64,000 bases of DNA from Eledone cirrhosa (lineage: Eukaryota), in NCBI GenBank assembly GCA_964016885.1, contig OZ024743.1:89466001-89530000 (forward strand). The letters run 5' to 3'. Of this stretch, positions 5,860-62,939 are shown in pieces (position 1 is the stretch's first letter; the number at the start of each line of letters is the position of its first letter). The notes beneath the pieces were generated by a model that worked only from the letters and a program-made list of their open reading frames with translations, ran no database searches and was not told the origin of the DNA. The position numbers and the translations under genes were made by a program.

Positions 5860-7830
5860 TTTATCTCTCCTCTCACTTTCTCTCTTACTCTCTCCCCCCT
5901 CTTTCTCTATGTAACTCTCTCTCCTCCATCTTTCTCTGTAACTCTCTCTCCTCCCTCTATCTCTGTAACTCTCTCTCCTCCATCTTTCTCTGTAACTCTC
6001 TCTCCTTCCCCTTTCTCTGTAACTCTCTCTCCTCCATCTGTCTCTGAAACTCTCCCTCCTCCATCTTTCTCTGTAACTCTCTCTTCTTCCCCTTTCTCTG
6101 TAACTCTCTCTCTCCTCCCTCTATCTCTGAAACTCTCTCTCCTCCATTTTTCTCTGTAACTCTCTCTCCTTCTCTTTTTCTGTAACTCTCTCTGCTCCAT
6201 CTTTCTCTGTAACTCTCTCTCCATCTTTCTCTGTAACTCTCTCTCCTTCCTCTTTCTCTGTAATTCCCCCTCTTCCCTCTATCTCTGTAACTCTCCCCTC
6301 CATCTTTCTCTGAAACTCTCTCTCCTCTTTCTCTGTAACTCTCTCTGCTCCATCTTTCTCTGTAACTTTCTCTCCTCCATCTTTCTCTGTAACTCTCCTT
6401 CATCTTTCTCTGTAACTCTCTCTCCGCTATCTGTCTCTGTAACTCTCTCTCCTCCATCTTTCTCAGTAACTCTCTCTCCTCCATCTGTCTCTGTAACTCT
6501 CTCTCCTTCCTCTTTATCTGTAACTCTCTCCTCCATATTTCTCTGTAACTCTCTCTCCTTCCTCTTTCTCTGTAACTCTCTCTCCTCCATCTGTCTCTGA
6601 AACTCTCTCTCCTCCATCTTTCTCTGTAACTCTCTCTCCTTCCTCTTTCCCTGTAACTCTCTCTCCTCCATCTTTCTCTGTAACTCTCTCTCCTGTCTCT
6701 TTCTCTGTAATTCTCCCTCCTACCTCTATCTCTGTAACTCTCTCTCCTTCCTCTTTCTCTGTAACTCTCTCTCCTCCCTCTTTCTCTGTAACTCTCTCTC
6801 CTCCCTCTATCTATGTAATTCTCCCTCATTCCTCTTTCTCTGTAACCTTCTCTCCTCCATCTGTCTCTGTAACTCTCTCTCCTCCATCTTTCTCTGTAAC
6901 TCTCTCTCTTCCCTCTATCTCTGTAACTCTCTCTCCTCCATCTATCTCTGTAATTCTCCCTCCTCCCTCTTTCTCTGTAACTCTCTCTCCTCCCTCTATC
7001 TCTGAAACTCTCTCTCCTTCCTCTTTCTCTATAATTCTCCCTCCCACCTCTATCGCTGTAACTCTCTCTCCTCCATCTTTCTCTGTAACTCTCTCTCCTT
7101 CCTCTTTCTCTGTAACTCTCTCTCCTCCATCTGTCTCTGTAACTCTCTCTCCTCTATCTGTCTCTGTAACTCTCTCTCTCTTCCCTCTATCTCTGTAACT
7201 CTCTCTCCTCCATCTTTCTCTGTAACTCTCTCTCCTTCCCCTTTCCCTGTAACTCTCTCTCTCCTCCATCTTTCTCTGTAACTCTCTCTCCTTCCCCTTT
7301 CTCTGTAACTCTCTCTCCTCCCTCTATCTCTGTAACTCTCTCTCCTCCCTCTATCTCTGTAACTCTCTCTCCTTCCTCTTTCTCTGTAATTCTCCCTCCT
7401 CCCTCTATCTCTGTAACTCTCTCTCCTCCCTCTATCTCTGTAACTCTCTCTCCTCCCTCTATCTCTGTAACTCTCTCTCCTTCCTCTTTCTCTGTAATTC
7501 TCCCTCCTCCCTCTATCTCTGTAACTTTCTCTCCTCCATCTTTCTCTGTAACTCTCTTTCCTTCCTCTTTCTCTGTAACTCTCTCTCCTCCATCTTTCTC
7601 TGTAACTCTCTCTCCTTCCCCTTTCTCTGTAACTCTCTCTCCTCCCTCTATCTCTGTAACTCTCTCTCCTCCATCTTTCTCTGTAACTCTCTCTCCTTCC
7701 TCTTTCTCTGTAATTCTCCCTCCTCCCTCTATCTCTGTAACTCTCTCTCCTCCCTCTTTCTATGTAATTCTCTCTCTTCCATCTTTCTCTGTAACTCTCT
7801 CTCCTTCCTCTTTCTTTGTAACTCTCTTTT
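5860..7830 (+). repeat. Polypyrimidine minisatellite, ~24-27-bp unit (ctctgtaactctctctcctccatcttt and variants)
   Basis: Directly visible tandem array. The ERVTE/RESYR ORFs are its translations. Confidence 0.95.

Positions 7831-16158: not shown

Positions 16159-16160
<2 letters not shown>
15560..16160 (+). mobile_element. RTE-clade (Expander/Rex3-like) LINE 3' remnant
   Basis: KFKYLAAVFTSD..KAKLAIFNTVFMPILTYG, then IQAAEMR, YGHVVRM and GKRPSGRP. 3' end ctgcccccacgaccc is followed by (AAT)n. Confidence 0.75.
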
Positions 16161-16246
<86 letters not shown>

Positions 16247-16247
<1 letters not shown>

Positions 16248-18253
16248 TCACATGTCTGCCCGTAATGTGGAAACTGTTGACGAGCATTGTGTCTGAGGAA
16301 ATCTACCATCACCTCCACACAAACAACTTGTTACCGGACGAACAGAAAGGATGCCGAAAGAAGTCACGTGGTACAAAGGACCAGTTGCTTATTGATAAGA
16401 TGGTAATGGGGAATTGCAGGAGGAGACACACTGATCTTGCCATGGGATGGATAGACTACAGAAAGGCATTTGACATGGTGCCTCATTCCTGGATCACCAA
16501 AAGCCTGGAGATCTTCAGGGTGGCAGATAACATCAGACAGTTGCTGGGCAGGAGTATGGGGTCCTGGGAGACAGAGTTGACATCAACTGGAGTATCCTTG
16601 GGAAGCGTGAAGATCAAGAAAGGTATCTTCCAGGGAGATAGCCTGTCCCCTCTGTTGTTTGTCCTTGCCCTGATGCCCTTGACCATTATGCTGCTAAAAG
16701 TGAGAGCAGGATACAAGTTGGGAAGGGGAGAGCTTACCATCAATCACCTCCTCTTCATGGACGATCTTAAGCTCTTCGGGAAAAGTGAGAAGGAGTTGGA
16801 TGTGCTTGTTGACACTGTCCGTATTTTCAGCAGTGATATATGTATGCAGTTTGGTATTGGTAAATGTGGAGTCATTGTGATGAGGAGGGGTAGGTTGAGC
16901 AGAAGTAACGGGATCCAGATACCAACAGGTGAGATGATAAAGGAAATTGACTCTGAGGAAGGATACAAGTATTTGGGCGTTCTGGAGGCTGATGGCATAA
17001 AGAACAAAAAAATGAAGGAATTGTTAAGAACTGAATACATTCGGAGAGTAAGGAGCGTATTGAAGTCACATCTGAACAGCAGAAATGCCATAAGCGCAGT
17101 AAATTCCCGAGCTGTGTCTATTATTAGGTACAGTGCGGGAATTCTGAGATGGAATGTTGCTGAACAAAAAGAAATGGATAGGAAGACTAGGAAGCTATTG
17201 ACTATCTACAACATGTTCCACAAGAGGAGTGATGTCGATAGACTCTACCTAAGGAGATCTGAGGGTGGAAGAGGTCTTATCAGCATAGAGGACTGTGTTC
17301 AGATGGAGAAAAACAACCTATACAAATACGTGACCTATAGTAAGGAGCCAATGCTCAGAGCTGTACTGAAGGAGGGGACAGTAGGCCAGGGGATATCCAA
17401 GGAGGAAATAACATCAAGGAGGAAGAGCAGCCTTAAGGGAAAATCCCTTCATAGTACCTTCTTTGAGAAAACTGAATTTAGAGATCCACAGACATGGAAC
17501 TGGTTGAGAAGAGGAGACCTCAAAAAGGCTACAGAAGGAATGCTAATGGCTGCGCAGGAGCAGGCCCTCAAAACGAAGTGGTTGAAGCACCATATCTACA
17601 AGGAGGAGGCTAGCCCACTGTGCAGGATCTGTGGAGAGAGAGAGGAGACTGTGGCCCACATTGTGTCCGAGTGTAAACACCTAGCCCAGACCCACTATAA
17701 GGGCTGGAGACACGATGTGATGGGCAGGGTGATCCACTGGCACCTGTGCAAAGTAAACAATCTACCACATTCTGAGAAATGGTATGAGCATAGGCCAGAG
17801 GCGGTGATGGAGAACAGTCAGGTGAAGGTGCTGTGGGATTTTAGGATACAGACGGACAAAAAACTGGAACACAATAGACCTGACCTGGTGGTTGTGGACA
17901 AAGAAAAAAGATCGTGCCTGATTGTGGATGTGGCCTGCCCGTTCGACACGAGAGTGCAAGAGAAGGAGAGGGAGAAAATTAACCGATACCAGGACCTAAA
18001 GTGGGAGGTGAAAAGGATTTGGAACTGCCATGAAGTCAAAGTGATCCCGATTGTCATAGGCGCACTGGGGACTATCTCCAAAGGTTTCCAGGGATGGTTA
18101 AAGAAAATCGGCCCCTTCACGCTTTTTGGAACGCTTCAAAAGGCATGCTTGCTTGGAACGGCAAGAACCCTCCGATACGTCCTGAATATCTGAGGCTGAT
18201 ATTCAATCCAACGGACTTTCCAGTTAACCAACATCAATGACTGAGATTCAAGG
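16247..18253 (+). mobile_element. Young 5'-truncated R4/Dong-type RLE non-LTR retrotransposon in (TAA)n
   Basis: Starts abruptly at ITCLPVMWK after (AAT)n at 16161-16246. A 60-bp 3'UTR is followed by an (AAT)n tail. Confidence 0.9.
16265..18193 (+). CDS. RT + CCHC zinc knuckle + restriction-like endonuclease (R4/Dong-type), N-terminally truncated
   Basis: [64 protein letters not shown] and [20 protein letters not shown]. No stops in 642 aa. Confidence 0.92.
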
Positions 18254-18265
18254 AATAACAATAAC

Positions 18266-18346
<81 letters not shown>

Positions 18347-31309: not shown

Positions 31310-33862
31310 GTGGTGTGTGGTGTGTAACATGGTGAATGGTGTGATATGATGTGTTGTAGTATGGTGTGGTGTATGGTGCTGTCCAGTGCAGTATATAATA
31401 TAGTGTGTGGTGCGGTGTGGAGTGGTGTACTGCGGTGTGGAGTGGTGTACTGCGGTGTGGAGTGCTGTAGTGCGGTGTGGAGTGGTGTACTGCGGTGTGG
31501 AGTGCTGTAGTGCGGTGTGGAGTGGTGTACTCCGGTGTGGAGTGCTGTAGTGCGGTGTGGAGTGGTGTACTGTGGTGTGGAGTGCTGTAGTGCAGAGTGC
31601 TGTAGTGCGGTGTGGAGTGGTGTACTGCGGTGTGGAGTGCTGTAGTGCGGTATGGAGTGGTGTAGTGCGGTGTGGAGTGGTGTAGTGTAGTGTGGTGCGG
31701 TGTGGTGTAGTGTAGTGTGCTGTAGTGTAGCATGGTGTGCTGTGGTGTAATGTGGTGTAGTCTTGTGTGCTGAGGTGTCGTGTGATGTAATGTGGGGTGG
31801 TGTTTGTAGTGTAGTGTGGTGTAGTGTAGTGTGGTGTAGTGTGGTGTGGTGTAGTGTGGTGTAGTATGGTGTGATGTAGTGTAGTGTGGTGTAATGTGGT
31901 GTGGTGTAGTGTAGTGTAGTGTGGTGTAGTGTAGTGTAATGTGGTGTAGTGTAGTGTGGTGTGTAGTGGAGTGTGATATGGTGTAGTGTAGTGTTGTGTG
32001 ACGTAGTGTACTGTTGTGTGGTGTGGTGTAGTGTGGTGTGGTGTAGTGTAGTGTAGTGTGGTGTAGTGTAGTGTGATGTAGTGTAGTGTGGTGTAGTGTA
32101 GTGTGGTGTAGTGTAGTGTGGTGTAGTGAAGTGTGGTGTAGTGTAGTGTGGTGTAGTGTGGTGCAGTGTGGTGTTGTGTAGTGTAGTGTGGTGTAGTGTT
32201 GTGTGACGTAGTGTACTGTTGTGTGGTGTGGTGTGGTGTGGTGTGGTGTAGTGTAGTGTGGTGTAGTGTAGTGTGGTGTAGTGTAGTGTGGTGTAGTGAA
32301 GTGTGGTGTAGTGTGGTGCAGTGTGGTGTTGTGTAGTGTAGTGTGGTGTAGTGAAGTGTGGTGTAGTGTAGTGTGGTGTGGTGTGTAGTGTGGTGTAGTG
32401 TAGTGTGGTGTAGTGAAGTGTGGTGTGGTGTAGTGTGGTGTAGTGTGGTGTTGTGTAGTGTAGTGTGGTGTAGTCAAGTGTGGTGTAGTGTAGTGTGGTG
32501 CAGTGTGGTGTTGTATAGTGCAGTGTGGTGTAGTGTGGTGTTGTGTGCTGTTGTGAGGTGCAGTGTAGTGTAGTGGGGTGTAGTGTAGTGTGGTGTAGTG
32601 AAGTGTGGTGTAGTGTGGTGTGGTGCAGTGTGGTGTTGTATAGTGTAGTGTGGTATAGTGTGGTGCAGTGTGGTGTTGTGTAGTGTAGTGTGGTGTGGTG
32701 TGCGGTGTAGTGTAGTGTGGTGAAGTGTGGTGTCGTGTAGTGTGGTGCAGTGTGGTGTTGTATAGTGTAGTGTGGTTTAGTGTAGTGTGGTGTGGTGTAG
32801 TGTAGTGTGGTGTAGTGTGGTGTGGTGTAGTGTGGAGTAGTGTGGTGTGGTGTAGTGTAGTGTGGTGTAGTATAGTGTGGTGTGGTGTTCTGTAGTGTGG
32901 TGTAGTGTGGTTTAGTGTAGTGTAGTGTGGTGTGGTGTTCTGTAGTGTGGTGTAGTGTGGTGTTGTGTAGTGTAGTGTAGTGTAGTGTGGTTTAGTGTAG
33001 TGTAGTGTAGTGTGGTTTAGTGTAGTGTAGTGTAGTGTAGTGTAGTGTGGTGTTGTGTAGTGTAGTGTAGTGTAGTGTGGTTTAGTGTAGTGTAGTGTAG
33101 TGTAGTGTAGTGTGGTGTAGTGTGGTTTAGTGTAGTGTAGTGTGGTGTTGTGTAGTGTAGTGTGGTGTAGTGTGGTTTAGTGTAGTGTAGTGTAGTGTGG
33201 TGTGGTGTAGTGTGGTTTAGTGTAGTGTAGTGTAGTGTAGTGTAGTGTGGTGTTGTGTAGTGTAGTGTAGTGTAGTGTAGTGTGGTTTAGTGTAGTGTAG
33301 TGTAGTGTAGTGTGGTGTAGTGTGGTTTAGTGTAGTGTGGTGTTGTGTAGTGTAGTGTGGTGTAGTGTGGTTTAGTGTAGTGTAGTGTAGTGTGGTGTAG
33401 TGTGGTTTAGTGTAGTGTAGTGTGGTGTTGTGTAGTGTAGTGTGGTGTAGTGTGATGTAGTGTGGTGTAGTGTGGTGTTGTGTAGTTTTTGTGTGGTGTA
33501 GTGTGGTGTAGTGTGGTGTAGTGTAGTGTAGTGTGGTGTTGTGTAGTGTAGTGTGGTGTAGTGTGGTTTAGTGTAGTGTAGTGTAGTGTTGTGTGGTGTT
33601 CTGTAGTGTGGCGTAGTGTGAGTTTGTGTAGTGTAGTGTGGTGTAGTGTGGTGTAGTGTGGTATTGTGTAGTGTAGTGTCGTGTAGTGTGATGTAGTGTG
33701 GTGTAGTGTGGTGTTGTGTAGTTTTTGTGTGGTGTAGTGTGGTGTAGTGTGGTGTAGTGTAGTGTGGTGTTGTGTAGTGTAGTGTGGTGTAGTGTGGTTT
33801 AGTGTAGTGTAGTGTGGTGTAGTGTGGTTTAGTGTAGTGTAGTGTAGCGTGGTGTGGTGTAG
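31310..33862 (+). repeat. (GTGTA/GTGTG)n pentamer satellite with a 20-bp higher-order block at ~31410-31690
   Basis: Directly visible. Confidence 0.95.
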
Positions 33863-35751: not shown

Positions 35752-35893
35752 GTTTTCTCTTTCTCTTAATTTCGAGTATATTTTTTTGACCGGCCACCTT
35801 CCTGGTGGCAAGGTTGTAAAAGAAAAGAAATTGTCATCCCTTGAATCGCAAGAATGTTTTGCATATTTTGAAGGTGCCAGCTATCGCAGCCAT
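35752..35893 (-). mobile_element. 3' end of an RLE LINE (family B) with (TACA)n tail
   Basis: Minus strand encodes SLQMAAIAGTFKICKTFLRFKG*. The 3'UTR is shared with 58283-58548. Tail (ATGT)n at 35718-35752. Confidence 0.65.
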
Positions 35894-36139
35894 TTGTAGA
35901 CTATGAATTAGGGAGCTGTGCTAGGTTGTCTGTGTGTGTGTGTGTAAATATCACATGATTAGAAGTGGGCGGTGAAAATTGAAAATTGAATTGAATTAGT
36001 AATATTTTTAGTCCAGAGATGAATGCTAATGCAAGCTGCTCCCATCGAACACCAGCATAACCTCTGACATCTATTGCCAACAATTTGAGAGATTAATAGA
36101 GAAAATCACATCGTACAGGTCCACACACAACATGGTCCT

Positions 36140-43704: not shown

Positions 43705-46700
43705 TAGAGGACGACCCCTCTAGTCTTTGTTGACACTCATCCTAGGAGTGGTAACTCGAAATAATTACCCCTTGGCGGTTAAGGATAAAACGCAACATGA
43801 TAAATCCGATGTCAAATAATAAAAACTTATACCGAATCGGCCCTCACCCGGGTCAGAGAGGAACCAGACTGGGGTCGAAAAATCAGCTAATGGTTCAAAC
43901 CTTCCCATCAGTTCGGAGCTGGAAACCTCCCATAACCGGAATACTCCTACTGTTGGCCTTCCATGCTCACCACCAAGAAATCCAAAGAAAAAGAGAGAAA
44001 AATAGTCAAGGGAAGACAATAAAGAAGTCCTTGAGGCTTTCTACACTGGCATGTACTACCCATCAAATAGATCGAATACAGAACAGACATATATCAACTG
44101 GAAAAAAAACATCCTGAAAACAGAGATTATATTGACAGTAATAAACTAGCTAATATACGAAGAAACATCGTTAAGAAGAAATTACTAACTGACATAGAAA
44201 TAGATCAGCTCAAGCAATTAGTGCAAAATCAGCGAAGGGAAAATGAAACATGTGTCAGTGAAAACGAAGTAAATTGTAACACCTTAAATCCCAGGGTCGG
44301 AGCGGAATCACTGACAGCAGAAAAAATTAAAGAAAGGATCGAAAAAGTGGAAGGAGTGCATGTTCAAGATGAAATTCAAAATGAAAACAATGAAGAGATT
44401 ATCAATGATAAAGAAATGAATGCGAATGAACTCGCCAACTTGAAGAATGAAATTATGAACGAATGGATGAAAATGAAAGAATCTGTCATGGAGGAACGAG
44501 GCACCCTCCCTAAGATCCGGAACTCCAAACAGAACCAGAGGATAATACGCAAGATTCGCATAGCTCTCAAAGACATTATCACCACAAATAAACTAAATAT
44601 TTATTTCTATTTTAGGCACAAGGCCAGCAATTACCCAGTGCATTACTGGTACTTTATTTTATCGACCCCGTAAGGATGAAAGGCAAAGTTAACCTCGGCG
44701 GGATTTGAACTCAGATCATAAAGGGACGTAACTCTATGCTTCAAAGCATGGTGTCCGACTCTCTACCGATACTGCCAATACACCGCCCTTAATAAACTAA
44801 ATATTACTGAACTATATCATCTCTATTATGCATCGGCTAAAGTCATCACTCACTTATGTGGAGTGAAAATGGAGAAACAAAGGAATTCCCACAAAAATCC
44901 TACTTGACAAGAGAACATCAATCTCCAAATAAACTTTCTCCGATCTGACATAGAAATTTTAGCAAACTACAAAGTAGGTGAACATGTTAAACAAACTAAA
45001 CTCAGAAAATTGAAAAGAAAATACAATATAAATTCAGCAAGCGACATAGACCTGGTGATAGAAACAATCAAGGAAAAAAGTGTCGGCCAAAGCTGCTCGT
45101 ATAAGGCGCTGTGAAAAACGCTCCAGATTCTATAAGGACAATAATATGTTAAAAAAAAACAAAAAACCTACAGAAAAATTGGCAAGCCAACAATAATTGC
45201 TAAATCAATACCACCCAAGGAGGAAGTGCAAGAATTCTGGAAAAAGATCTGGGCCGAAAAAAAAGTTCATAATATACATGCTCCATGGATAGACAGACGA
45301 ATGAAAGATGCAGCTCACCTTGAGGAACAAACATGAGAAAATATAACAGTTGAACATCTGCGTTTAGCTCTTAGAAAATCCAGCAAATGGAAATCCCCAG
45401 GGAAAGACAAGATACCAAATTTCTGGATAAATGCCTTCACAGAGTATCATGAGCTATTAGCCTAACTTTACAATAACATGGTTAAGGAGCCAGAAAAGAT
45501 ACCATCATGGCTAGTTAACGGCATTACATTCCTACTTCCGAAGAATGATGAGAAAAATAATCCAAAAAATTACAGACCGATAACTTGCTTGACCGCTATG
45601 TATAAAATCTTAACATCAGTTCTAACTGAATATACATATGATCACCTGATAACGAATGATCTATTTCACAATGAGCAGAAAGGGTGTAAACGAGGCTCAT
45701 ATGGCTGTAAGGATCAGCTTTTGGTTAACAAAATGATACTGGAAGATTGTCATAATAGACACAAAAATCTATCAACTGCTTGGATAGATTACAAAAAAAC
45801 ATTCGATAGTTTGCCACACAGTTCGATTGAAAAGTGTTTAGTGATTTTCAAAATATCTCCCGTTGTCAGGAGGTTCTTGTCATTTAGTATGAAGACATGG
45901 AAAACGACACTCATTTTGAATAGTGAAAAATCGCTGGAAGCTGGAGAAGTTGATATTAATTGTGGAATTTTTCAGGGTGACTCTTTATCACCGCTTTTAT
46001 TCTGCATCGCACTTATACCATTAAGTAAAATGCTCAATGAAACAAAACATGGTCAAACTCGTTTTGAAACATTAAAGCAACAAAAGATCATACTCCATTA
46101 CAAAAGTTGCACATAGATACAGTAATAAACTACACATTTCAGAAGTTCCCTTTACTCCTGAAATGAAAAATACAGAAAACTGCAAAGAAAGAACTGCTAC
46201 AGAAACTGGCTAAGAAATGGCAAGAAAAACCTCTGTATGGAAAATACCCAGAAAGAGCTAACCATCCTGATGTTGACAAAAGGTTAACCCATCAGTGGTT
46301 GGCATCCCCTGGACTGAAAACAGAGACTGAAGGACTGATTATATCAGCACAAGATCAGTGTCTGCCAACAAAAAATTATCACGCCAACATCATAAAAAAT
46401 GGATGCAACCAATTATGCCGTGTATATAAAAAAAACAACCAGAGACCATTGATCATATAATTTCAATGTGCAGTCCTATAGCTCCAACCGAATATCTAAA
46501 CAGGCATGATAGAGCTGCAAAATACATACATTGGGTAATGTGTAAGTATTTTGATCTGCCCCATCAAAAGAATTGGTGGGAGCATCAACCACCTCCCGTA
46601 CTTGAAAAAGATCACATCTCAATTTTGTGGAACTTTAGCATCCAAACAGACCGAAAAATAGATGCAAATATATCTGATATAATACTGAAGGACTGTAAAA

Positions 46701-46942
46701 AGCGGGTATGCCTGCTAATTGACATGACCGTTCCTATAGACAAGAATGTATCTATAAAAACATTTGAAAGATTGAGCAAGTATAAAGACCTGGAAATAGA
46801 GATTGGAAAATGTGGAAGTTGAGAACTAAAACAATACCAGTGGTTGCAGGCGCTCTAGGAATGATACCTAAAGGGTCTAATGATTACTTATCCCAAATCC
46901 CAGGAAATTCGCGTATAGAGGAAATACAACAAATAGTTCTAA
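43705..46942 (+). mobile_element. Near full-length decayed R4/Dong-type RLE LINE with internal deletion
   Basis: N-terminal (W)SREDNKEVLEAFY..WKKKHP..KLANIRRNI..LTDIEI, then WKSPGKDKI, NYRPITCL, QGDSLSP, a deletion near 46050, KTETEG..AQDQ, RHD and LIDMTVP..KYKDL. Preceded by tataataac. Confidence 0.85.
44602..44790 (-). mobile_element. Full-length SINE inserted in the R4/Dong ORF
   Basis: 15-bp TSD aataaactaaatatt at 44587-44601 and 44791-44805. Confidence 0.9.
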
Positions 46943-46945
46943 TAA

Positions 46946-47400
46946 ATGGTACGAACATCAACCAAAAATAGTCATGGAAAAGGGCAACATATCCATCTTG
47001 TGGGTTATGCCTGTGATAACCGACCGAGAATAGCTGCCAACAGGCCAGATATGATCATAAAAAACAAAACGAATCGGACATGTAGCCTTATAGATATTTC
47101 CGTACCAGCTGACAAGAATACATCTATAAAAACAATGGAAAAGTGTCAAAATACATAGAGATCAACCGCATGTGGAGGATGACTACAAACACTATTCTTG
47201 GATCATTAGGATTAATAGCCAAATCCCCAGACCAGCGTCCTTCACTGCAAGATCAGCAAATATAAGCTACAGAAGATCGGACTACTAGGAAGAGCACACA
47301 TTCTCAGATGAGTTCTTTATCTACAATGAAAACATCTATTGTCCTAGATTGAAGGCCTTAACTCGGCAACAGAGAAACAGAACTGAGCTAAACGAAATAA
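46946..47400 (+). mobile_element. 3' fragment of a second RLE LINE family
   Basis: WYEHQP..AANRPDMIIKNK..LIDISVP..EK, ending in an (AAC/AAT)n tail. Confidence 0.75.
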
Positions 47401-47422
47401 CACAACAACAATAATAATAATG

Positions 47423-47870
47423 AGTGAAGGTACTATGGGATTTCAGGATACAGACAGACAAGAAATTAGAACACAATAGGCCTGACCTGGTGGTTTTTGA
47501 CAAAGAAAAAAGATCGTGCCTGATTGTAGATGTAACCAACCCTTTTGACACAAGAGTGCAAGAAAAGGAGGAGGAGAAAATTAACTGATACCAGGATTTA
47601 AAGTGGGAATTAAAAAAGGATGTGGGACAGTCGTGAGATCAAGGCCGTCTCGATTATCATAGGAGCACTAGGTACTATCTCGATGAGTTTTCAGGAATGG
47701 TTAAAGAACATTAGTCCAGCCCCCTTTTTTGGAACATTTCAAAGGCATGCTTGCTGGGAACAACAAGAGCCCCCCGATACGTCCTAAATATCTGATGCTG
47801 CAGGTAGCGGCTTTTATGTTTATTTGAACAAACTTTCCAGTTAAATAACATCAATGACTGAGACTCCAAG
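47423..47870 (+). mobile_element. 3' fragment of the same family as 16247-18253, in (AAT)n
   Basis: [24 protein letters not shown]. The 3'UTR actttccagtta..acatcaatgactgaga is shared. Confidence 0.9.
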
Positions 47871-53704: not shown

Positions 53705-54389
53705 GGGGGTACATCTAGCACTGCGGGATATTTCCTTCGCCAGCTGTCAACTGAGATCATAGTGATTTCGACACCTTCCGACTCGCTCAACCTCTCCCAC
53801 TCTACCGGTGGAACCACCATTGATGTTATCAACAGACGACTGGATTATTTTCCTTCACATCGTCGCTCGTTAATTTTTCCGCCTCTGATATATATCATAC
53901 TATACTGTACTATGATATACTATAATATGATCTAATATAATATAATATAATGGTTTCTGTATTAGGTACTGGGCCAACAATTTGGGGGGAGGGGAAAGTC
54001 GATTAAATCGACTCCAGTGCGTTACTGGTACTTTATTTTAGCAACTCCGTAAGGATGAAAGGCAAAGCTAGCCTTGGCGGGATTTGAAACAGAACATAGA
54101 GAATCGTAATAACTACCGCAATGTATTTTGTCCAACGCTCTCCCGATACTGCCAATCCACCGCCCTATAATATAATATATGATATAACATAACAATATAA
54201 TATAATTGTTTCTACTTTTGGAACAAGGCCAGCAATTATCCTAGTGCATTACTGGTATTATTTATTGACCCCGTAAGGACGAAAGGCAAAGTTTGAATTC
54301 AGAACGTAATGGACTATAACTCTATGCTGCAAAGCATGGTGTCTGATGCTCTACCGGATCTGTCAATCCACAGCCCTATCATATCATTA

Positions 54390-56782
54390 CCTATCAATCT
54401 AGCAATCAGGCGAGCATATAAGCCAGATTGACTTCTTGCTAGTTAGGCAACGAGACAGACAGATGATTCCGAATACTAAGGCATACCCTGGAGGAGAATG
54501 TACCCCCCAACATAGGTTAGTCGTTAGTGACATCTTAATAAGCAAGAAACAGAATGAGACTCAGGAAGTATGGAAAAGGAAGGTCTGGAAGCTAAAAGAC
54601 CTTTCACTTAAATATAAATTTAGGAAAGCCCATCAAGATGTGTATGACGAGAAAGAAGACGAATTAGAATTGTATGACATAGAAGATAACTGAAGAGACT
54701 TGTGGATGGAACAAAGCCCTAACCAGACAGAGGGTGACTTGGTGGTGGAACATCACGGTAGATAGAGCCATTAAAGACAACAGACAAGCATGGAAGGATT
54801 GGGAAAATAGGAGTAGAGAACGATACTCAGCCGCTAAAAGAGAGGTTAGAAGTCAGGTATAGTTAGCACGCAGGGAAGCTGAGAGTAGGAGGTTTGCCAA
54901 TGTTCTGCGACGAGAGGATCAGAGACCTGAGGTGTTCCGCATTTCCAGGCAATGTGTCAGTGTAAATCAGTGTGTAAGTGTAAATTGTTGGAGATAAGTG
55001 TGTCAGAAATGATGCTGGTGCACTAAGCGTCACTGATGCTCAGAAAAAGGAGGCCTGGAACTGTCGTTATGAGAGACTGATGAATGTTGAGAATAAATGG
55101 GAGAGAAGAAACTAGCCCCAACAGACCCAACAGAGGGACCAGCTATTGAGATTGACGACTATAGGGTTAAAGAGGCAATTAAGGAAATGAAAAGTGGTAA
55201 GGCCGCTGGACCGTCAGGTATAGTTGCTGAGATGCTGAAGGCATCAGGAGAAGTAGGAACTAAACTGGTTGCACGCATAGTCAATCAAGTTATATGTGGC
55301 AGAATCATACCCAAAGACTGGTGCAGCAGTATTCTTGTAAATTGCTACACAGGTAAAGGGGATGCTCTGGAGAGGAGCAATTATAGGGGCATAAAACTGA
55401 TGGATCAGGTTATGAAAGTGACAGAATGGGAGCTAGCACAACTAATTAGAGAAAGGGTCAAATTAGATGAGATGCAATTTGGTTTTGTGCCTAGGAAATG
55501 TACAACAGATGCTCTCTTCTTTGTGATACAAGAGAGGTTCTTAGAGAAGTATAAGCCACTATATTTAGTTTTTGTTGACCTAGAGAAGGTCTTTGATAGA
55601 GTACACCGATCTGTCATCTGGTGATCCCCAAGGAAACTAGGTGTAGAGGAATGGCTTTTAAGGACGGTGCAAGCTATGTACAGAGGAGCTGTTAGTAAAG
55701 TGAGAGTAGGAATGTAGTTTAGTGAGGAATTCCAGATACAAGTAGGAGTTCATCAGGGTTCGGTCCTCAGCCCACTCTTATTCATTATAGTCCTCTAAGC
55801 CACAACAGAGGAGATTAAAACTGACTGCCCATGGGAACCTGTCTATGCTGACGATCTGGTATTTATAGCAGAATCAGTAGAGGAGCTAGAGAATAAATTC
55901 CGGCTATGGAAACAACAGTTGAAATCAAGAGGACTGAAGAGTTGAAAAGTAGAAACGAGGACAAAACTCTGATTCCACCAGGGAAATGGGCATGTTCGAT
56001 ATGTAGAAAAGCAGTTGACATAAACTATATAGAATGTACACAATGCAGATCTTGGGTACACAAGAGGTGCAGTGGGATAGCAGGCAAACTAACATAAAAG
56101 GAAAACTTATGTGGTAGATGCTCAAGGAAATTTGATAGTAAAAGTGTCAGTGATAGGCACATTTTTCAAATGCAGGTAGGATCTATAGAGGTGGTTGATA
56201 GCTTCCGATACCTAGGTGATCAGATTAGCAAGGGAGGAGGATGCTCCAATGCCATAGTATCTAGAATAAGGACAGGAAGGAAGAAGTTTAGGAAGCTGCT
56301 TCCTCTGTTGACAACGAAGGGTTTCTCCCTACGAACGAAAGGTCGGTTATCTGATGCTTGTGTGAGGAGCGCGATGCTGCATGGTAGTGAGACATGGGCA
56401 GAAACTGCGGAGGATATGCGACGGGTGGAGAGAAATGAAGTAAGCAAGCTCCGATGTATGTGCAGTGTAAATGTGCGTGAACGACCGAGCATAGATGAGT
56501 TGAGAGAGAAACTGTGTATAAGAGGAATAAACTCTAATATGCAGGAGAGACGACTGCGTTGGTATGGACATGTGCTGCGCATGGAATATGACCGCAAGGA
56601 AGATTCAGAAGAGGAAGACCACGAAAAACATGGGCAGAGGTGGTGAGAGCTGACCTCAGATCGCTGAAGCTCACAGACGTTATAACAAGGGACCGTGACG
56701 AATGGAGAGATGCTGTGCTGAAGAGGACCCGTCCCACCCTTGCAAGCGGGGAAAAGTGGACGTAAAATGATGATGATGATGA
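54390..56782 (+). mobile_element. Decayed RTE-clade LINE with a Cys/His (PHD-like) insert and (TGA)n tail
   Basis: SQIDFLLVR..QHRLVV (APE end), MKSGKAAGPSG, NYRGIKL, QFGF, FVDLEK, GVHQGSVLSP, YADDL, FRYLGD, HGSETW and RLRWYGHV. Confidence 0.9.
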
Positions 56783-57771: not shown

Positions 57772-58282
57772 TCGATGATCACTAGTAATGTTTTTCTATA
57801 GCTGCCTAATTTTTACTAGAGACTCAATTATACAGATTGCGACTAGGTCAGATAAGTGGTGACACCCGTGCACATATATATATACATACCTATGTACGTA
57901 CCTACCTACCTACCTACCTACCTACTTACCTACCTAAATACATACATACATACATACATACATACATACATACATACATACATACATACATACATACATA
58001 CATACATACATACATACATACATACATACATACCTGCCTGATATTGTATTTTGGAATTACAGATTGATAGGTGGTCAGTTGAGGAGGTCAGCTACTCACT
58101 CGACACTCGATGTTAGTTTAGTAAGATACAAAAAAGGTGGATATCATTGATGAGGAGTTTACGGATCCAGTGCCAAAACCGCCGAGGTTAACTTTGCCTT
58201 TCATCCTTACGGGGTCGATAAAATAAAGTACCAGTAATACACTGGGTTATTTGCTGGCCTTGTGCCTAACGTAGAAACAATT

Positions 58283-58548
58283 ATTATTGGAGATACAAGA
58301 TATATACCAACTAGCCTGGAACAAAGTAAAACTGAACTTGGATTCTTGGAGACAGAATGCAGCTGCTTAATTCATAAGCTCCACCTGTCAACGATATCTG
58401 GAGCCTTCAAAATCTGTTGAACGTTCTTATGATTCAAAGAATGAATGATTGCACGAGGGTGTGTGATTTTTTTCTTTTCTTTACAACCTTGGCCCCAGGA
58501 TGGTGGCCGGTCAAAAATAAACTCAAAATTACTAAAAGAAAACACAAA
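58283..58548 (+). mobile_element. 3' end of an RLE LINE (family B) with (TACA)n tail
   Basis: YIPTSLEQ..ELGF..IHKLHLSTISGAFKIC. The 3'UTR matches 35752-35893. Confidence 0.65.
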
Positions 58549-59259
58549 CATACATACATACATGATGATGATGACTGCCCCCTCGTTATCGAGTATGGCC
58601 ATTGCACGATATACCATTATTAATAGTTATTAATTAATTCTATCGTGCAATGCCTGTGCATGAAGATTTTTTTTCAGTGAGGAAAGTCTGTGCACTGAGC
58701 CAATCCCAATCTCTGAGCGACAGTAGCTATAACCCGAAAAGAAGAAAATATCAACATCATCGGTAACTACTGATATAAAACCTGCAGCTCACATACATAC
58801 ATACATACATACATACATACATACATACATACATACATGGTGGCTGCCAACTCGTTTTCGAGTACGGTCACTACTTTATATCCATGTAGGAGAACCCCTA
58901 CCGATGCGCTAAACAAGTGTGACTTTTTAGTCCAGCCACCGACTTGAAAACTCTGGTACAAACACTACACTTGTGACAATTATTGACACATAGTGCTGGG
59001 CCCATGGTACCATGTGACGACAAGTGCAGAGAGATCTCCAGATATAAAGCAATGCCTGTGCCGCAAAGCTTTTATAGTGAGCAAAGGCACTGCACAAAGC
59101 CAGTCCCACTCTCTTAACCAAGATGATATTTACCAAAAAGAAGAACAAGTCAACATCATTGGATACCATCAGGGTTGCAGGTGTTATACCACAGTTTTCC
59201 TTCTCCTAGAATTCTGCCTTGACAAAGGCTAAGGGGTCATACATACATACATACATACA

Positions 59260-59292
<33 letters not shown>

Positions 59293-59830
59293 TCATGCAT
59301 GCATGAATACATGGTCCCGTAATTCCTGACGGAGTCGTTGGGGCGCCGTATTGACATATGTTGTTTCTAGGACATTTTCTTTTAAATCTGGCGGAACCCA
59401 TCTCTCTGCATGTTCGAATACAGCACATTTCTTCCAGAGAAGGATAGACAGTGAGAGAATGGAAGTGAGGAAGAGGTATAGAGAAAGAATCGACCGTATT
59501 GAAAGAATGACAGTATTAGACTGGTACTTTTTTTATCGATCTGGAAAGGACGAAAGGAAAGTTGACCTCGGTGGAATTTGAACTCAGAGATCAGAGCCGA
59601 AACGAATACCGCAAAGTATTCTATCTGACGTTCTAAGACCTTTGTCAATTCGCCGCATACATACATGCATACATACATGCATATATACATGCATACCTAC
59701 ATGCATACATACATGCTTACATTCGCCGCCTACATACATGCATACATACACACACACATACATACATACATACATACATACATACATACATACATACATA
59801 CATACATACATACATACATACATACATACA

Positions 59831-60265
59831 GATACTCCACCCTGATTACACCTTCAGATTTATGCCTGTGATTATTGGGGCACTGGGATATATTAGTAGC
59901 TGCCTCAATACAAATCTTGAGAAGCTAGGCTTCACAGGAACAGAAAGAACAGAACTAGTTAGGAAATTACAAGTACAATCCATTAATGGAACAGTAAAAA
60001 TATGTAAGACATTCCGAAAATTTTGCATCCTATAACTGCATATACACATATACAGATGCAAAGCATATACACATGCACACATACAACTCAAAACACACAC
60101 ATTCACACATACAATAACATCCATATCTACACATGCATGCATGCATACATACATATCTACCTAGTTGATGTTGTGTAAATTCCAATGAGAGAGTCTTGTG
60201 TCTATGTTAGAAACCGACTCTCTCTCTATTGGTAAAACTTTGTGAAATTATAAAACCAGAAGAAC
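59831..60265 (+). mobile_element. 3' fragment of RLE LINE family A between (TACA)n tracts
   Basis: Highly similar to 62480-62880. Confidence 0.9.
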
Positions 60266-60310
60266 ATACATACATACATACATACATACATACATACATA
60301 CATACATACA

Positions 60311-60340
<30 letters not shown>

Positions 60341-60341
<1 letters not shown>

Positions 60342-62880
60342 TATTGCTCATACACTGCAACAAAAACATACGAAATAAGTGAGGGTACCCTTGAGACTGT
60401 GATAGGAAAACTCCAAGATAAGAAAACACCAGGAAGAGACATGATTGTCGGATACTGGTACAAAAACTGATATTCTATCGGAGGTATCTTACCGACCTCT
60501 ACCAACAAATTCTTAAGGGAGATACACTTATACCAGAATGGTTGACATTAGCACAAACATTACTGGTCCCCAAGAACAAAGACACCCACCTGACAAAAAA
60601 CTACCAACCCATTGCATGCCAGTACCTGATGTATAAAATGTATACAGCCTGCCTGAACCTATTCCTCCAAGATCACTGTGAAAATAATAACATCATCACA
60701 GATGAACAAGCAGCTGGAAAGAAAGGGGTTTGGGGATGTGCTGAACAACTTCTAATCAACAAAACTGCGATGTCGGAGGTGCGACAACTTAGGAGGAATA
60801 TGGCTATAGTCTGGCTGGACTACTGGAAAGCTTTCGATTCTGTTCCCCACTCTTGGATGATAGAGGCCCTCCGACTTGCTAAACTCCCAGACATTATTAT
60901 CAGAGCCATAGAGAAGCTGTCTTCTTCTTGGGCTAATATCCTAAAGTTAAAGACAGAGAAGGAGGACTCTATTTTCACTGATAAAATAAAATATCGCAGG
61001 GGTATATTTCAGAGAGACAGTCTCTGTGATATTATTCATCCTGTCATTAAACCCCTTGTCCCTTCTTCTCAAGAAATGTGAAGGATACATCATTGGCTCA
61101 CAGGAGGCAGAAATACGAACCTAACCTATAATTTCTTTGTGGATAATCTGAAACTCTATGCCAAGAACATGGATGAAGAAAAATCGTAACCTGGTTACAA
61201 CATTCTCAAAGGATATAGGAATGGGGTTTGTCCAAGATAAATGCTCATATATGACTGTAAAGCGGGGAAAAACAACAACCCAATCTAGCAACATTTGTAT
61301 CAATGGCCTAAGTGTTTCACCAATATCTGATGAGTACTACTACAGATGCCTGGGGATAGATGAGAACATATCCTATAATGGTATCTGTAATAAGGAACGC
61401 GTAACCAGGGAATACTACAACCGATTAAGAAAGATATAGTCATCGGAACTCTCTGCGCAGAACAAAACAGTAGCTCACAATGTGTTTGCTGTGCCTGTCC
61501 TAACACCAACTTTTGGAATACTCAATTGGACGATAGACGAAATCCGAGCGATTGATGTTAGAACTCGAACAATACTCAACAACACCGGAAACTTCCACAT
61601 CAAGAGTGAAATAGACCGCCTTTACTTGAAACGTAAGCGGGGAGGCAGAGGCCTAACATCAGTCCAGACAACATTTGAATGTCACAGTATATCCCTCCGA
61701 CAACATCTACGAACCTCAAAGCGTAGGAGCCCGTCTCTCGAGCAAGTCTATCTGCATGAGAGTTGGGAAGGAACTCCTCGAGAGGTATTCCCTGTGTGAT
61801 AATCAAAAACTCACACACAGGGAAGTCGTTCAGCAGTATCGCAGTGAATCCATGGATGAAAAGCTGCATGTTTATCAGCAAAAAAATAATGCATGGATAT
61901 GTTGCCAGGAAGCTCCAGAGTGAGAGTAATATAGATAAAGAAAGTAATCTATCTTGGACCAACGACAGTTATATTGGCTCCCACTTTGAAGGATATGCTT
62001 TTGCAATGCAAGAACAGGAAATCAACACGAAATACCTGATTCACAAAAGAGATAGGGATACAGGCAAAACACCTAGATGTAACAACAAATGCAGACTGCA
62101 GAATTAACATCGAAGATGTCACCCATGTCATAAGCAGCTGTCCAAAGATGTCATCGCGGTACTATCTACCTATGAGGCATGATGTAGTGGCCAAAACACT
62201 GTACAATACAATCCGTAGAAAAGATAGCCCCGATAATAAACACATTAAAAGCTACAGCAACGTGGAAGACATATACATACATAATATGAAAGAGTACTGG
62301 TGGAATGTTCCAGTAAAAAACCCAATAAAATGCAGGCATAACAGACCAGATATTATGATATGGGACAGGGAAAAGAAGGCATGCACAGTAGTGGAAGTTA
62401 GCTGCCCAGCAGATGCCAATATAATATCAAAGATTAGCGAAAAGGAGAATATTTATGCAGAACTGATGAGAAATCTGCAGATACTTCACCCTGATTATAC
62501 GTTCAGGTTTATGCCTGTGATTATTAGGGCACTGGGGTATGTTAGTAACTGCCTCAATACAAATCTTGAGAAGCTGGTCTTCACAGGAACAGAAAGAACA
62601 CAATTAGTTAGGAAATTACAAGTACAATCCATTAATGGAACAGTAAAAATATGTAAAACATTCCAAATTTTTGCATCTAATAACTGCATATACACATGTA
62701 CAGATACTAAGCATATACACATGCACACATACAACTCAAAACATCTACATCAACACATACAATAACATCCTTATCTACCTAATTGATGTGTAAATTCCAA
62801 TGAGAGAGTCTTGTGTCTAAGTTAGAAACCGACTCTCTCTCTATTGGCAAACATTTGTGAAATTATGAAATCAGAAGAAC
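60341..62880 (+). mobile_element. 5'-truncated, frameshifted R4/Dong-type RLE LINE (family A) between (TACA)n tracts
   Basis: KTPGRD, NYQPIAC, EQAAGK, WLDYWKAFDSVPH, RGIFQRDSL, FVDNLK, GGRGL, AMQEQE, CRL..HVISSC, RHD and RPDIMIWD..VEVSCP..EKENIY. Confidence 0.9.
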
Positions 62881-62939
62881 ATACATACATACATGCACAC
62901 ATGCATACATCAGCTAAGTCACATATTCACAAATCCCTG

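What the first reader, a model, noticed from the sequence alone, without database searches (positions are those of the whole stretch)
59656..62895. RLE (R4/Dong-type) retrotransposon apparently targeting (TACA)n microsatellites
Seen: two head-to-tail copies of family A, each differently 5'-truncated, start immediately after (TACA)n and end GAAGAAC-(ATAC)n. The second copy sits in the first copy's tail. Established: Dong elements target (TAA)n, whereas ACAY-repeat targeting is known from the APE-type R1-clade Waldo. Inference: an RLE endonuclease with tetranucleotide-repeat specificity, possibly an undescribed target class that also seeds (TACA)n tracts.
Basis: partly seen in the sequence, partly recalled or inferred. 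Interest (0 to 1): 0.7.

Follow-up and report, generated by a model that had tools for sequence, protein, structure and literature searches.

The report
Retrotransposon lineage homing to TACA microsatellites
Two broken copies of a jumping gene sit end to end in runs of the four-letter repeat TACA, and most sampled copies of this family have the same repeat, always on the same strand, at their front end, so it likely inserts into TACA repeats rather than the three-letter TAA repeats known for its relatives.

Summary
Observation confirmed. Window 59829-60265 and 60342-62880 are two 5'-truncated, dead copies of a 4.1-kb single-ORF LINE (RT, CCHC knuckle, restriction-like endonuclease) separated and flanked by (TACA)n. 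At least 4,271 3' ends lie in the genome. In a genome-order sample, 57 of 91 copies have a perfect (TACA)n at the 5' junction, none on the opposite strand; background is 0.23%. An RTE control gives 0 of 24. A second family, about 50% identical in protein, shares the target (11 of 19). A canonical Dong-like family in the same genome uses (AAT)n instead (20 of 20 tails, 0 TACA). The two TACA families lie in a lineage set apart from the AAT-tailed elements (100/100, unrooted). One correction: the upstream copy is the less diverged, so it probably inserted in front of the downstream one, not the reverse. Not shown: whether protein or RNA-tail pairing picks the site, an empty site, de novo seeding of tracts. 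No paper searched gives this target for an RLE element; Repbase and Dfam were not checkable. New target variant of a known kind.

The parts
59656..59830 (+). 5' (TACA)n tract: degenerate with CATG variants to about 59755, perfect 59756-59830
59829..60265 (+). Family A copy 1: last 67 codons of the ORF plus 229-nt 3' UTR, ends GAAGAAC; 2.5% from consensus, likely the younger insertion
60266..60341 (+). (ATAC)n tract between the copies: 3' flank of copy 1 and 5' flank of copy 2
60342..62880 (+). Family A copy 2: 5'-truncated at reference position 1511, broken by stops, frameshifts and small deletions; 5.0% from consensus
60422..61763 (+). Reverse transcriptase and thumb remnants (Pfam RVT_1, E 1.3e-7 on 60422-61078)
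62040..62675 (+). Remnant of the CCHC knuckle (second half, HVISSC), RHD motif and restriction-like endonuclease (RPDIMIWD...VEVS motif)
   Evidence: motif meaning from established knowledge of RLE LINEs
62881..62910 (+). 3' (ATAC)n tract with CATG variants like those of the far 5' tract
57938..58033 (+). 96-nt perfect (TACA)n tract directly 5' of an old family C copy
58032..58547 (+). Old, interrupted 3' fragment of family C (second TACA-associated RLE family), followed by (ATAC)n 58548-58563
58837..59240 (-). Family B, a non-coding ~600-nt SINE-like element, truncated, in the opposite orientation, between (TACA)n tracts 58791-58838 and 59238-59289
43707..46943 (+). Copy of family D, the canonical (AAT)n-tailed Dong-like family used as same-genome control (87-91% to an intact copy)
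35752..35922 (-). Short young family C fragment with (ATAC)n tail; its 5' flank is a short (CA)n-like run, not TACA

Best explanation
These are two dead, front-truncated copies of an R4/Dong-type LINE that likely inserts by target-primed reverse transcription into pre-existing (TACA)n tracts in one fixed orientation, with the site likely chosen by the element's own protein. Shown: domain layout, copy number, strand-specific TACA at both junctions, a second family with the same target and a third with (AAT)n. Inferred: the protein nicks the (TGTA)n strand in one register, so that new DNA reads ...GAAGAAC-ATAC...; one to a few bases of RNA-DNA pairing help priming; reverse transcription often stops early and the cDNA joins the upstream repeat through short microhomology or a few extra bases; each insertion leaves repeat on both sides, so one landing site becomes two and chains of elements build up. 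Inferred for this locus: copy 2 came first, copy 1 later entered the tract 5' of it. Untested: which domain reads the repeat; by analogy with R2, the conserved N-terminal three-helix domain and the endonuclease are the candidates.
For: 5' junctions: 57 of 91 genome-order copies; 55 of 86 after dropping 5 duplicated loci, 45 of 76 truncated copies; 26 of 30 full-length 5' ends; 30 of 43 in a second, non-random set; background 0.23%. Opposite strand 0 of 91. Selective: (TA)n 2, (CA)n 0, (TAA)n 0 of 76, although tracts of at least 12 nt number 363, 79 and 19 per 200 kb against 41 for TACA. Not only tandem tails: 33 of 61 truncated copies with no family A end upstream. RTE control 0 of 24 at 5', 0 of 30 at 3'. 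Fixed register: ATAC follows the terminus in 86 of 91. 5' and 3' tracts of one copy share sequence variants more than shuffled pairs (35 copies, p 0.001-0.005), as expected if one tract was split. Family C: 11 of 19 visible 5' junctions, ATAC after 24 of 30 ends. Family D: AAT at 20 of 20 3' ends and 10 of 13 truncated 5' junctions, TACA at none. Best structural match R2Tg (Z 31.1, rmsd 3.1 A over 448 residues). In R2Bm the N-terminal domains and the RLE read the target and 3' homology is not required (PMC10499050 passages).
Against: About 20% of copies (18 of 91) have no TACA-like 5' flank even by a tolerant score; several abut other repeats and may have been cut later, but this was not shown for each. 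A 20-25 nt target duplication seen in 6 of 47 informative copies (null 1.6, p = 0.0016) did not replicate in a second set (0 of 17). No single phase at 5' junctions. No empty site was found. Other elements in this genome also gather in AT-rich repeats (family B; RTE 5' flanks are often (AT)-rich), so general fragility of microsatellites contributes. No biochemical test.
Confidence: 0.62

Rival explanations
1. Targeting is real but set by the RNA: a weakly specific endonuclease nicks microsatellites generally, and only nicks where the transcript's (AUAC)n tail can pair with the (GTAT)n strand prime reverse transcription.
For: Explains strand bias, fixed register and the A/C versus D split equally well, since each family's tail equals its target. 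Tail-target pairing is proposed for RTE, I, R1Bm and R2Ol elements (PMC6007223 section 18). 5' joins show excess microhomology (mean 2.4 nt in 16 junctions against 0.8 expected).
Against: In four copies a variant only 4-9 nt after GAAGAAC is shared with the 5' tract, which would mean little RNA-templated tail; this signal is weak and did not replicate. (TA)n, nine times more abundant and partly complementary to the tail, is almost unused. R2Bm does not need 3' homology.
Confidence: 0.28
2. The 5' tracts are made during or after insertion (template jumps onto another RNA's tail, slippage, or later repeat expansion), so there is no pre-existing target.
For: Full-length 5' junctions often carry short extra repeats such as AGTC units; template jumping is known for R2; long pure tracts are rare in random DNA (7 of at least 20 nt per 200 kb).
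Against: A jump should usually continue into the 3' UTR, yet most 5' tracts have no family end upstream (33 of 61). The two window copies differ in age and by 32 of 403 sites from each other. Variant sharing between the flanks. Unrelated elements end in the same tracts.
Confidence: 0.07
3. Random insertion with later survival only in microsatellite-rich, neutral regions.
For: The genome is very rich in simple repeats.
Against: Cannot give junction-exact, one-strand, one-repeat association (57 versus 0); the youngest class shows the highest rate (25 of 34 at 96% identity or more, 6 of 14 below 92%); RTE control 0 of 24.
Confidence: 0.03

Closest known systems
Dong (Bombyx mori), DongAg, DongBg and ostracod Dong; R4 clade
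   Same: Single ORF, RT + CCHC + RLE, no N-terminal zinc finger, microsatellite at both junctions; 30-34% identity over about 950 residues to (AAT)n-tailed relatives and to a B. mori protein.
   Different: Target (TACA)n, not (TAA)n (known target from PMC7998251 and PMC3812793 passages); sits on the other side of a long, fully supported branch from the AAT-tailed elements.
WaldoAg1, WaldoAg2, WaldoFs1 (R1 clade)
   Same: Target ACAY repeats, which include ACAT = the TACA repeat (PMC3812793 passage).
   Different: APE endonuclease, insects; the shared target would be convergent.
Togen (fish) and some HERO families
   Same: RLE LINEs with microsatellite targets; Togen uses (TG)n (PMC4640811 passages).
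   Different: NeSL/HERO-related; dinucleotide target.
Octopus Dong-R4 families (Petrosino 2022; Bonar 2026; Marino 2022)
   Same: Dong-R4 LINEs are listed as abundant and recently active in octopods (5 families, 1,129 recent insertions in O. vulgaris; PMC13282606); the nearest named homologue here is from Argonauta (47% to family A; groups with family C).
   Different: None of the passages read describes an insertion target; whether families A and C are among those entries could not be checked.
R2 (R2Bm, R2Tg)
   Same: Best sequence and structure matches in the PDB; same C-terminal layout.
   Different: About 21% identity; R2 has N-terminal zinc fingers and targets 28S rDNA.

Membership tests
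RLE-type non-LTR retrotransposon | Single long ORF with central RT | tested here: met
   One 1,231-codon ORF in the script consensus; natural copy L084 open for 1,139 codons with one stop; RVT_1 hit
RLE-type non-LTR retrotransposon | CCHC knuckle then PD-(D/E) endonuclease at the C-terminus; no APE | tested here: met
   CRLC...HVISSC, RHD, PD-x12-E motifs; no APE family in Pfam scans; best folds R2
RLE-type non-LTR retrotransposon | Fixed 3' end, variable 5' truncation | tested here: met
   At least 4,271 exact 3' ends and 600 exact 5' ends; truncation points spread over the element
R4 clade | No N-terminal C2H2 zinc finger (unlike R2, NeSL/Utopia) | tested here: met
   No Cys/His finger pattern in the first 430 residues
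R4 clade | N-terminal SANT/Myb-like domain (PMC7998251) | tested here: inconclusive
   Conserved three-helix segment, residues 54-108, pLDDT about 90; no Myb hit by HMM against PDB or Pfam; single-domain fold too poor to search; HHpred not available
R4 clade | RT groups with R4/Dong/Rex6 against R2, NeSL, HERO, CRE | not testable with these tools
   No named reference sequences could be fetched; trees are unrooted and hold only Dong-like rows. Similarity is far higher to AAT-tailed Dong-like proteins (E 1e-131) than to R2 (E 1e-20)
Dong (narrow sense) | (TAA)n target | tested here: not met
   0 of 76 5' junctions at (TAA)n although family D in the same genome uses it
Dong (narrow sense) | Lies within the (AAT)n-tailed lineage | tested here: not met
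   Families A and C separated from all 10 AAT-labelled rows by a 100/100 branch
Waldo (R1 clade) | APE endonuclease and gag-like ORF1 | tested here: not met
   Single ORF with C-terminal RLE
Sequence-specific LINE | Sequence-specific nicking by the encoded protein | not testable with these tools
   Needs a cleavage assay

The most novel reading that the evidence does not exclude
Families A and C mark a deep, unnamed sister lineage of Dong within the R4-like LINEs, widespread in unnamed marine assemblies, whose protein reads four-letter repeats (TACA here, perhaps CTTA in a relative); with the TAA-reading family D in the same genome it gives a natural set of intact-reconstructable proteins for finding how an RLE element without zinc fingers changes repeat specificity, and it shows an RLE and an APE element converging on the same ACAT target.
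Probability: 0.4. Interest if true: 0.68.

Novelty: new variant of a known kind. Interest (0 to 1): 0.5.

Why it matters
Site-specific RLE retrotransposons are being developed as gene-insertion tools, yet how the zinc-finger-less R4/Dong elements choose their sites is unknown. One genome that holds a (TAA)n family with intact ORFs and two (TACA)n families makes domain-swap and tail-swap tests direct, and would separate protein recognition from RNA-tail pairing. It also explains nested retroelement chains and some unreliable tetranucleotide markers in these genomes. The step from TAA to TACA extends a known strategy rather than opening a new one.

Tried and rejected
Empty sites: contigs of public runs laid on L262 and on window 59300-60500 gave no joint that skips an insertion; contigs break at the tracts, so this shows nothing. 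No RNA holder listed. A DNA search with the 117-nt 3' end found nothing because common words are skipped. Target duplication of 20-25 nt: positive in one set (6 of 47), absent in another (0 of 17); not claimed. Purity of 5' and 3' tracts was not correlated (rho 0.30, p 0.11, n = 30). 5' junction phase: no single phase (ACAT 14, CATA 14, ATAC 11, TACA 10 compatible, of 16 clean junctions among 50). Old family C copies (about 78% identical) gave 0 of 28 strict 5' hits, with junctions poorly defined; only the younger set was positive. Rfam found no ribozyme or RNA head in a full-length copy or in family B, only microRNA models matching the repeats. Myb/SANT identity of the N-terminal domain: HMM searches blank, single-sequence fold poor. 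An RTE outgroup could not be aligned into the tree. Bombyx P0101 could not be tied to the published Dong by name; hosts of the nearest homologues are unnamed. My first tract count used a loose pattern and was replaced. The automatic de-duplication (76 copies) removed some independent copies; the manual one (86 copies) is given beside it. In one search two copies (16, 65) were chained across gaps over 3 kb and may be two insertions each.

Full report
Anatomy. The window lies in G000:C4, a 3.0-Gb animal genome, likely an octopod by its repeat content and by the nearest named homologue, an Argonauta protein (inference). Between 59656 and 62910 the + strand reads: degenerate then perfect (TACA)n; copy 1 (59829-60265); 77 nt of perfect repeat; copy 2 (60342-62880); a short degenerate tract. 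Both copies end in GAAGAAC. Copy 2 holds broken RT (Pfam RVT_1), knuckle and endonuclease remnants. Long copies fetched from the genome define a 4.1-kb element that starts AGTCAACG, with one ORF of 1,231 codons and a 229-nt 3' UTR. A natural copy is open for 1,139 codons with one stop. The best PDB matches by sequence and by predicted fold are R2 proteins (Z 31.1, rmsd 3.1 A, 448 residues). There is no N-terminal zinc finger; a conserved three-helix segment lies at residues 54-108, which I could not confirm as Myb/SANT.

Is the repeat a target or only a tail? An exact 27-nt 3' terminus occurs 4,271 times (control 0) and an exact 20-nt 5' terminus 600 times. I fetched the first 91 of the 100 listed 3' ends in genome order. 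A perfect TACA-phase run of at least 12 nt ends within 15 nt of the 5' junction in 57 of 91; on the opposite strand in 0 of 91; at 910 of 392,000 positions of 20 evenly chosen 10-kb regions (0.23%). After removing five duplicated loci: 55 of 86, and 45 of 76 truncated copies; a tolerant score gives 69 of 86 against 7.4% background. Full-length 5' ends: 26 of 30. A second, non-random set: 30 of 43. In a stricter de-duplicated set of 76, (TA)n was at 2 junctions, (CA)n and (TAA)n at none, although such tracts number 363, 79 and 19 per 200 kb against 41 for TACA. Truncated copies with no family A end upstream still score 33 of 61, so tandem tails do not explain it. The least diverged copies score highest (25 of 34). 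The RTE family of this window gives 0 of 24 visible 5' junctions. About a fifth of copies (18 of 91) lack any TACA-like 5' flank; several abut other repeats, and none shows a convincing target duplication around the tail, so seeding of new tracts at naive sites is not shown.

Junction detail. ATAC follows the terminus in 86 of 91 copies. The two tracts around one copy share variant 6-mers more than shuffled pairs (35 copies; 0.23 versus 0.12, p = 0.0045; 0.117 versus 0.045, p = 0.001), as expected if one tract was split. In 6 of 47 informative copies the start of the 3' tract, variant included, recurs 20-25 nt before the 5' junction (null 1.6; p = 0.0016), hinting at a duplication of that length; a second set gave 0 of 17, so I do not claim it. 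Of 50 5' junctions examined, 16 join cleanly, with mean microhomology 2.4 nt against 0.8 expected; the rest have extra or mismatched bases or could not be anchored; no single phase is favoured.

Order of events at this locus. Copy 1 is 2.5% from consensus, copy 2 5.0-5.5% (p = 0.02-0.03). The far 5' tract and the final 3' tract both carry CATG variants. The simplest reading is that copy 2 split an impure tract first and copy 1 later entered the repeat 5' of it; subfamily structure could blur this.

Other families. A fragment at 58032-58547 belongs to family C, a second RLE family about 50% identical to A in protein, with at least 1,665 3' ends. Its younger copies have TACA at 11 of 19 visible 5' junctions and ATAC after 24 of 30 ends; its oldest copies gave 0 of 28 with ill-defined junctions. 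Prompted by earlier notes of this scan, I searched for an AAT-type family and found family D, with intact 1,216-codon ORFs, 30.5% identical to A, one copy of which lies in this window (43707-46943). Twenty fetched copies all end in (AAT)n; 10 of 13 truncated ones also start after (AAT)n; the 5' junction of the other 7 lay beyond my reference or was not resolved; none touches TACA. Of 80 metagenome relatives, 37 have the 3' region in the contig: 20 show (AAT)n, 2 (ACA)n, 1 (AT)n, none (ATAC)n; one member of the A/C lineage ends in (CTTA)n 1.1 kb after its stop, at the contig end. In RT trees (74 rows, quick; 34 rows, careful) A and C fall in different sub-branches of one lineage with Argonauta and many unnamed proteins, parted from all AAT-labelled rows, family D, and the Bombyx, Penaeus and other arthropod proteins by a long 100/100 branch. 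The trees are unrooted and lack named R4, NeSL, HERO or R2 rows, so R4-clade membership rests on domain layout and similarity. One origin of the TACA target is the simplest reading; targets of the rows between A and C are unknown.

Mechanism. Shown: strand-specific, repeat-specific association at both ends. Inferred from R2 (PMC10499050, passages: N-terminal domains and RLE read the target; 3' homology not required): the protein nicks the (TGTA)n strand, primes reverse transcription of its RNA, and the cDNA joins upstream repeat. The rival, selection of nicks by pairing of an (AUAC)n RNA tail (PMC6007223, abstract and section 18), fits most of the same data; I put it at about 0.3 against 0.6. 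Either way each insertion leaves repeat on both sides, which accounts for the chain from 57938 to 62910 (families C, B, A, A).

What is known. [quoted passage not shown] ACAY is the target of the APE-type Waldo elements (PMC3812793, passages). Togen uses (TG)n (PMC4640811, passages). Octopus Dong-R4 families are listed without a target (PMC13282606, part 1 of 3 and passages, supplement not read; PMC9115989 and PMC8967140, passages). Passages of PMC7650587, PMC3747384, PMC5035012 and PMC13580325 added nothing on this point. The original Dong paper, an R4 mosquito paper and Kojima and Fujiwara 2003/2004 were not seen. Nine literature searches showed no RLE element with a TACA/CATA target; Repbase and Dfam could not be checked, and most subscription papers are outside the library. 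Three earlier notes of this scan on the same genome reached the same reading; they are not independent support, and they mean the finding is not new within the scan.

Verdict. Real, genome-wide and well controlled as an association; a new target variant for a known kind of element; mechanism of choice untested. Interest 0.5.

Noticed in passing
window 58837-59240 (-) and L101-L130: Family B, a ~600-nt non-coding SINE-like element with a CAT 3' end, lies in (TA)n and (TACA)n tracts at both ends, opposite in orientation to family A; it or a related element follows the family A tail in 30 of 76 copies. Its partner LINE was not identified.
   Followed up: partly
window 54300-56780 (+) and L161-L190: RTE-type LINE with (ATG)n tail; many copies have (AT)n-rich sequence at one or both junctions, a possible weak preference for (AT)n.
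   Followed up: partly
window 16247-18166 (+): Another degenerate RLE element, 31% identical to family A in protein, flanked by (AAT)n at 16160-16247 and 18254-18318; no DNA match to family D.
   Followed up: no
window 43707-47800: Family D copy followed by further RLE 3' fragments separated by short (AAT)n runs: a small AAT-type chain in the same window.
   Followed up: partly
L327:3280-3480 and L363:6700-6740: Two metagenome Dong-like elements end in (ACA)n instead of (AAT)n; L327 is very close to AAT-tailed elements in the tree, so this may be drift of a single tract or a recent switch.
   Followed up: no
L291:4650-4694: A member of the A/C lineage ends in (CTTA)n 1.1 kb after the stop codon, at the contig end.
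   Followed up: no
L371-L400, base 1480-1500: Full-length 5' junctions often carry short extra sequence (TTCCATC in 5 of 30, repeated AGTC or AGAC units); the start AGTC within TCAGTC resembles an initiator motif (recalled, not tested).
   Followed up: no
L262 laid on runs X4, X5, X7: Family A-like contigs occur in runs of three other coded organisms, some pieces 98% identical, so the family is not confined to this genome.
   Followed up: no
window 5864-7827 and 31366-32300: A 27-nt minisatellite of 73 copies and a degenerate 5/10-nt array.
   Followed up: no
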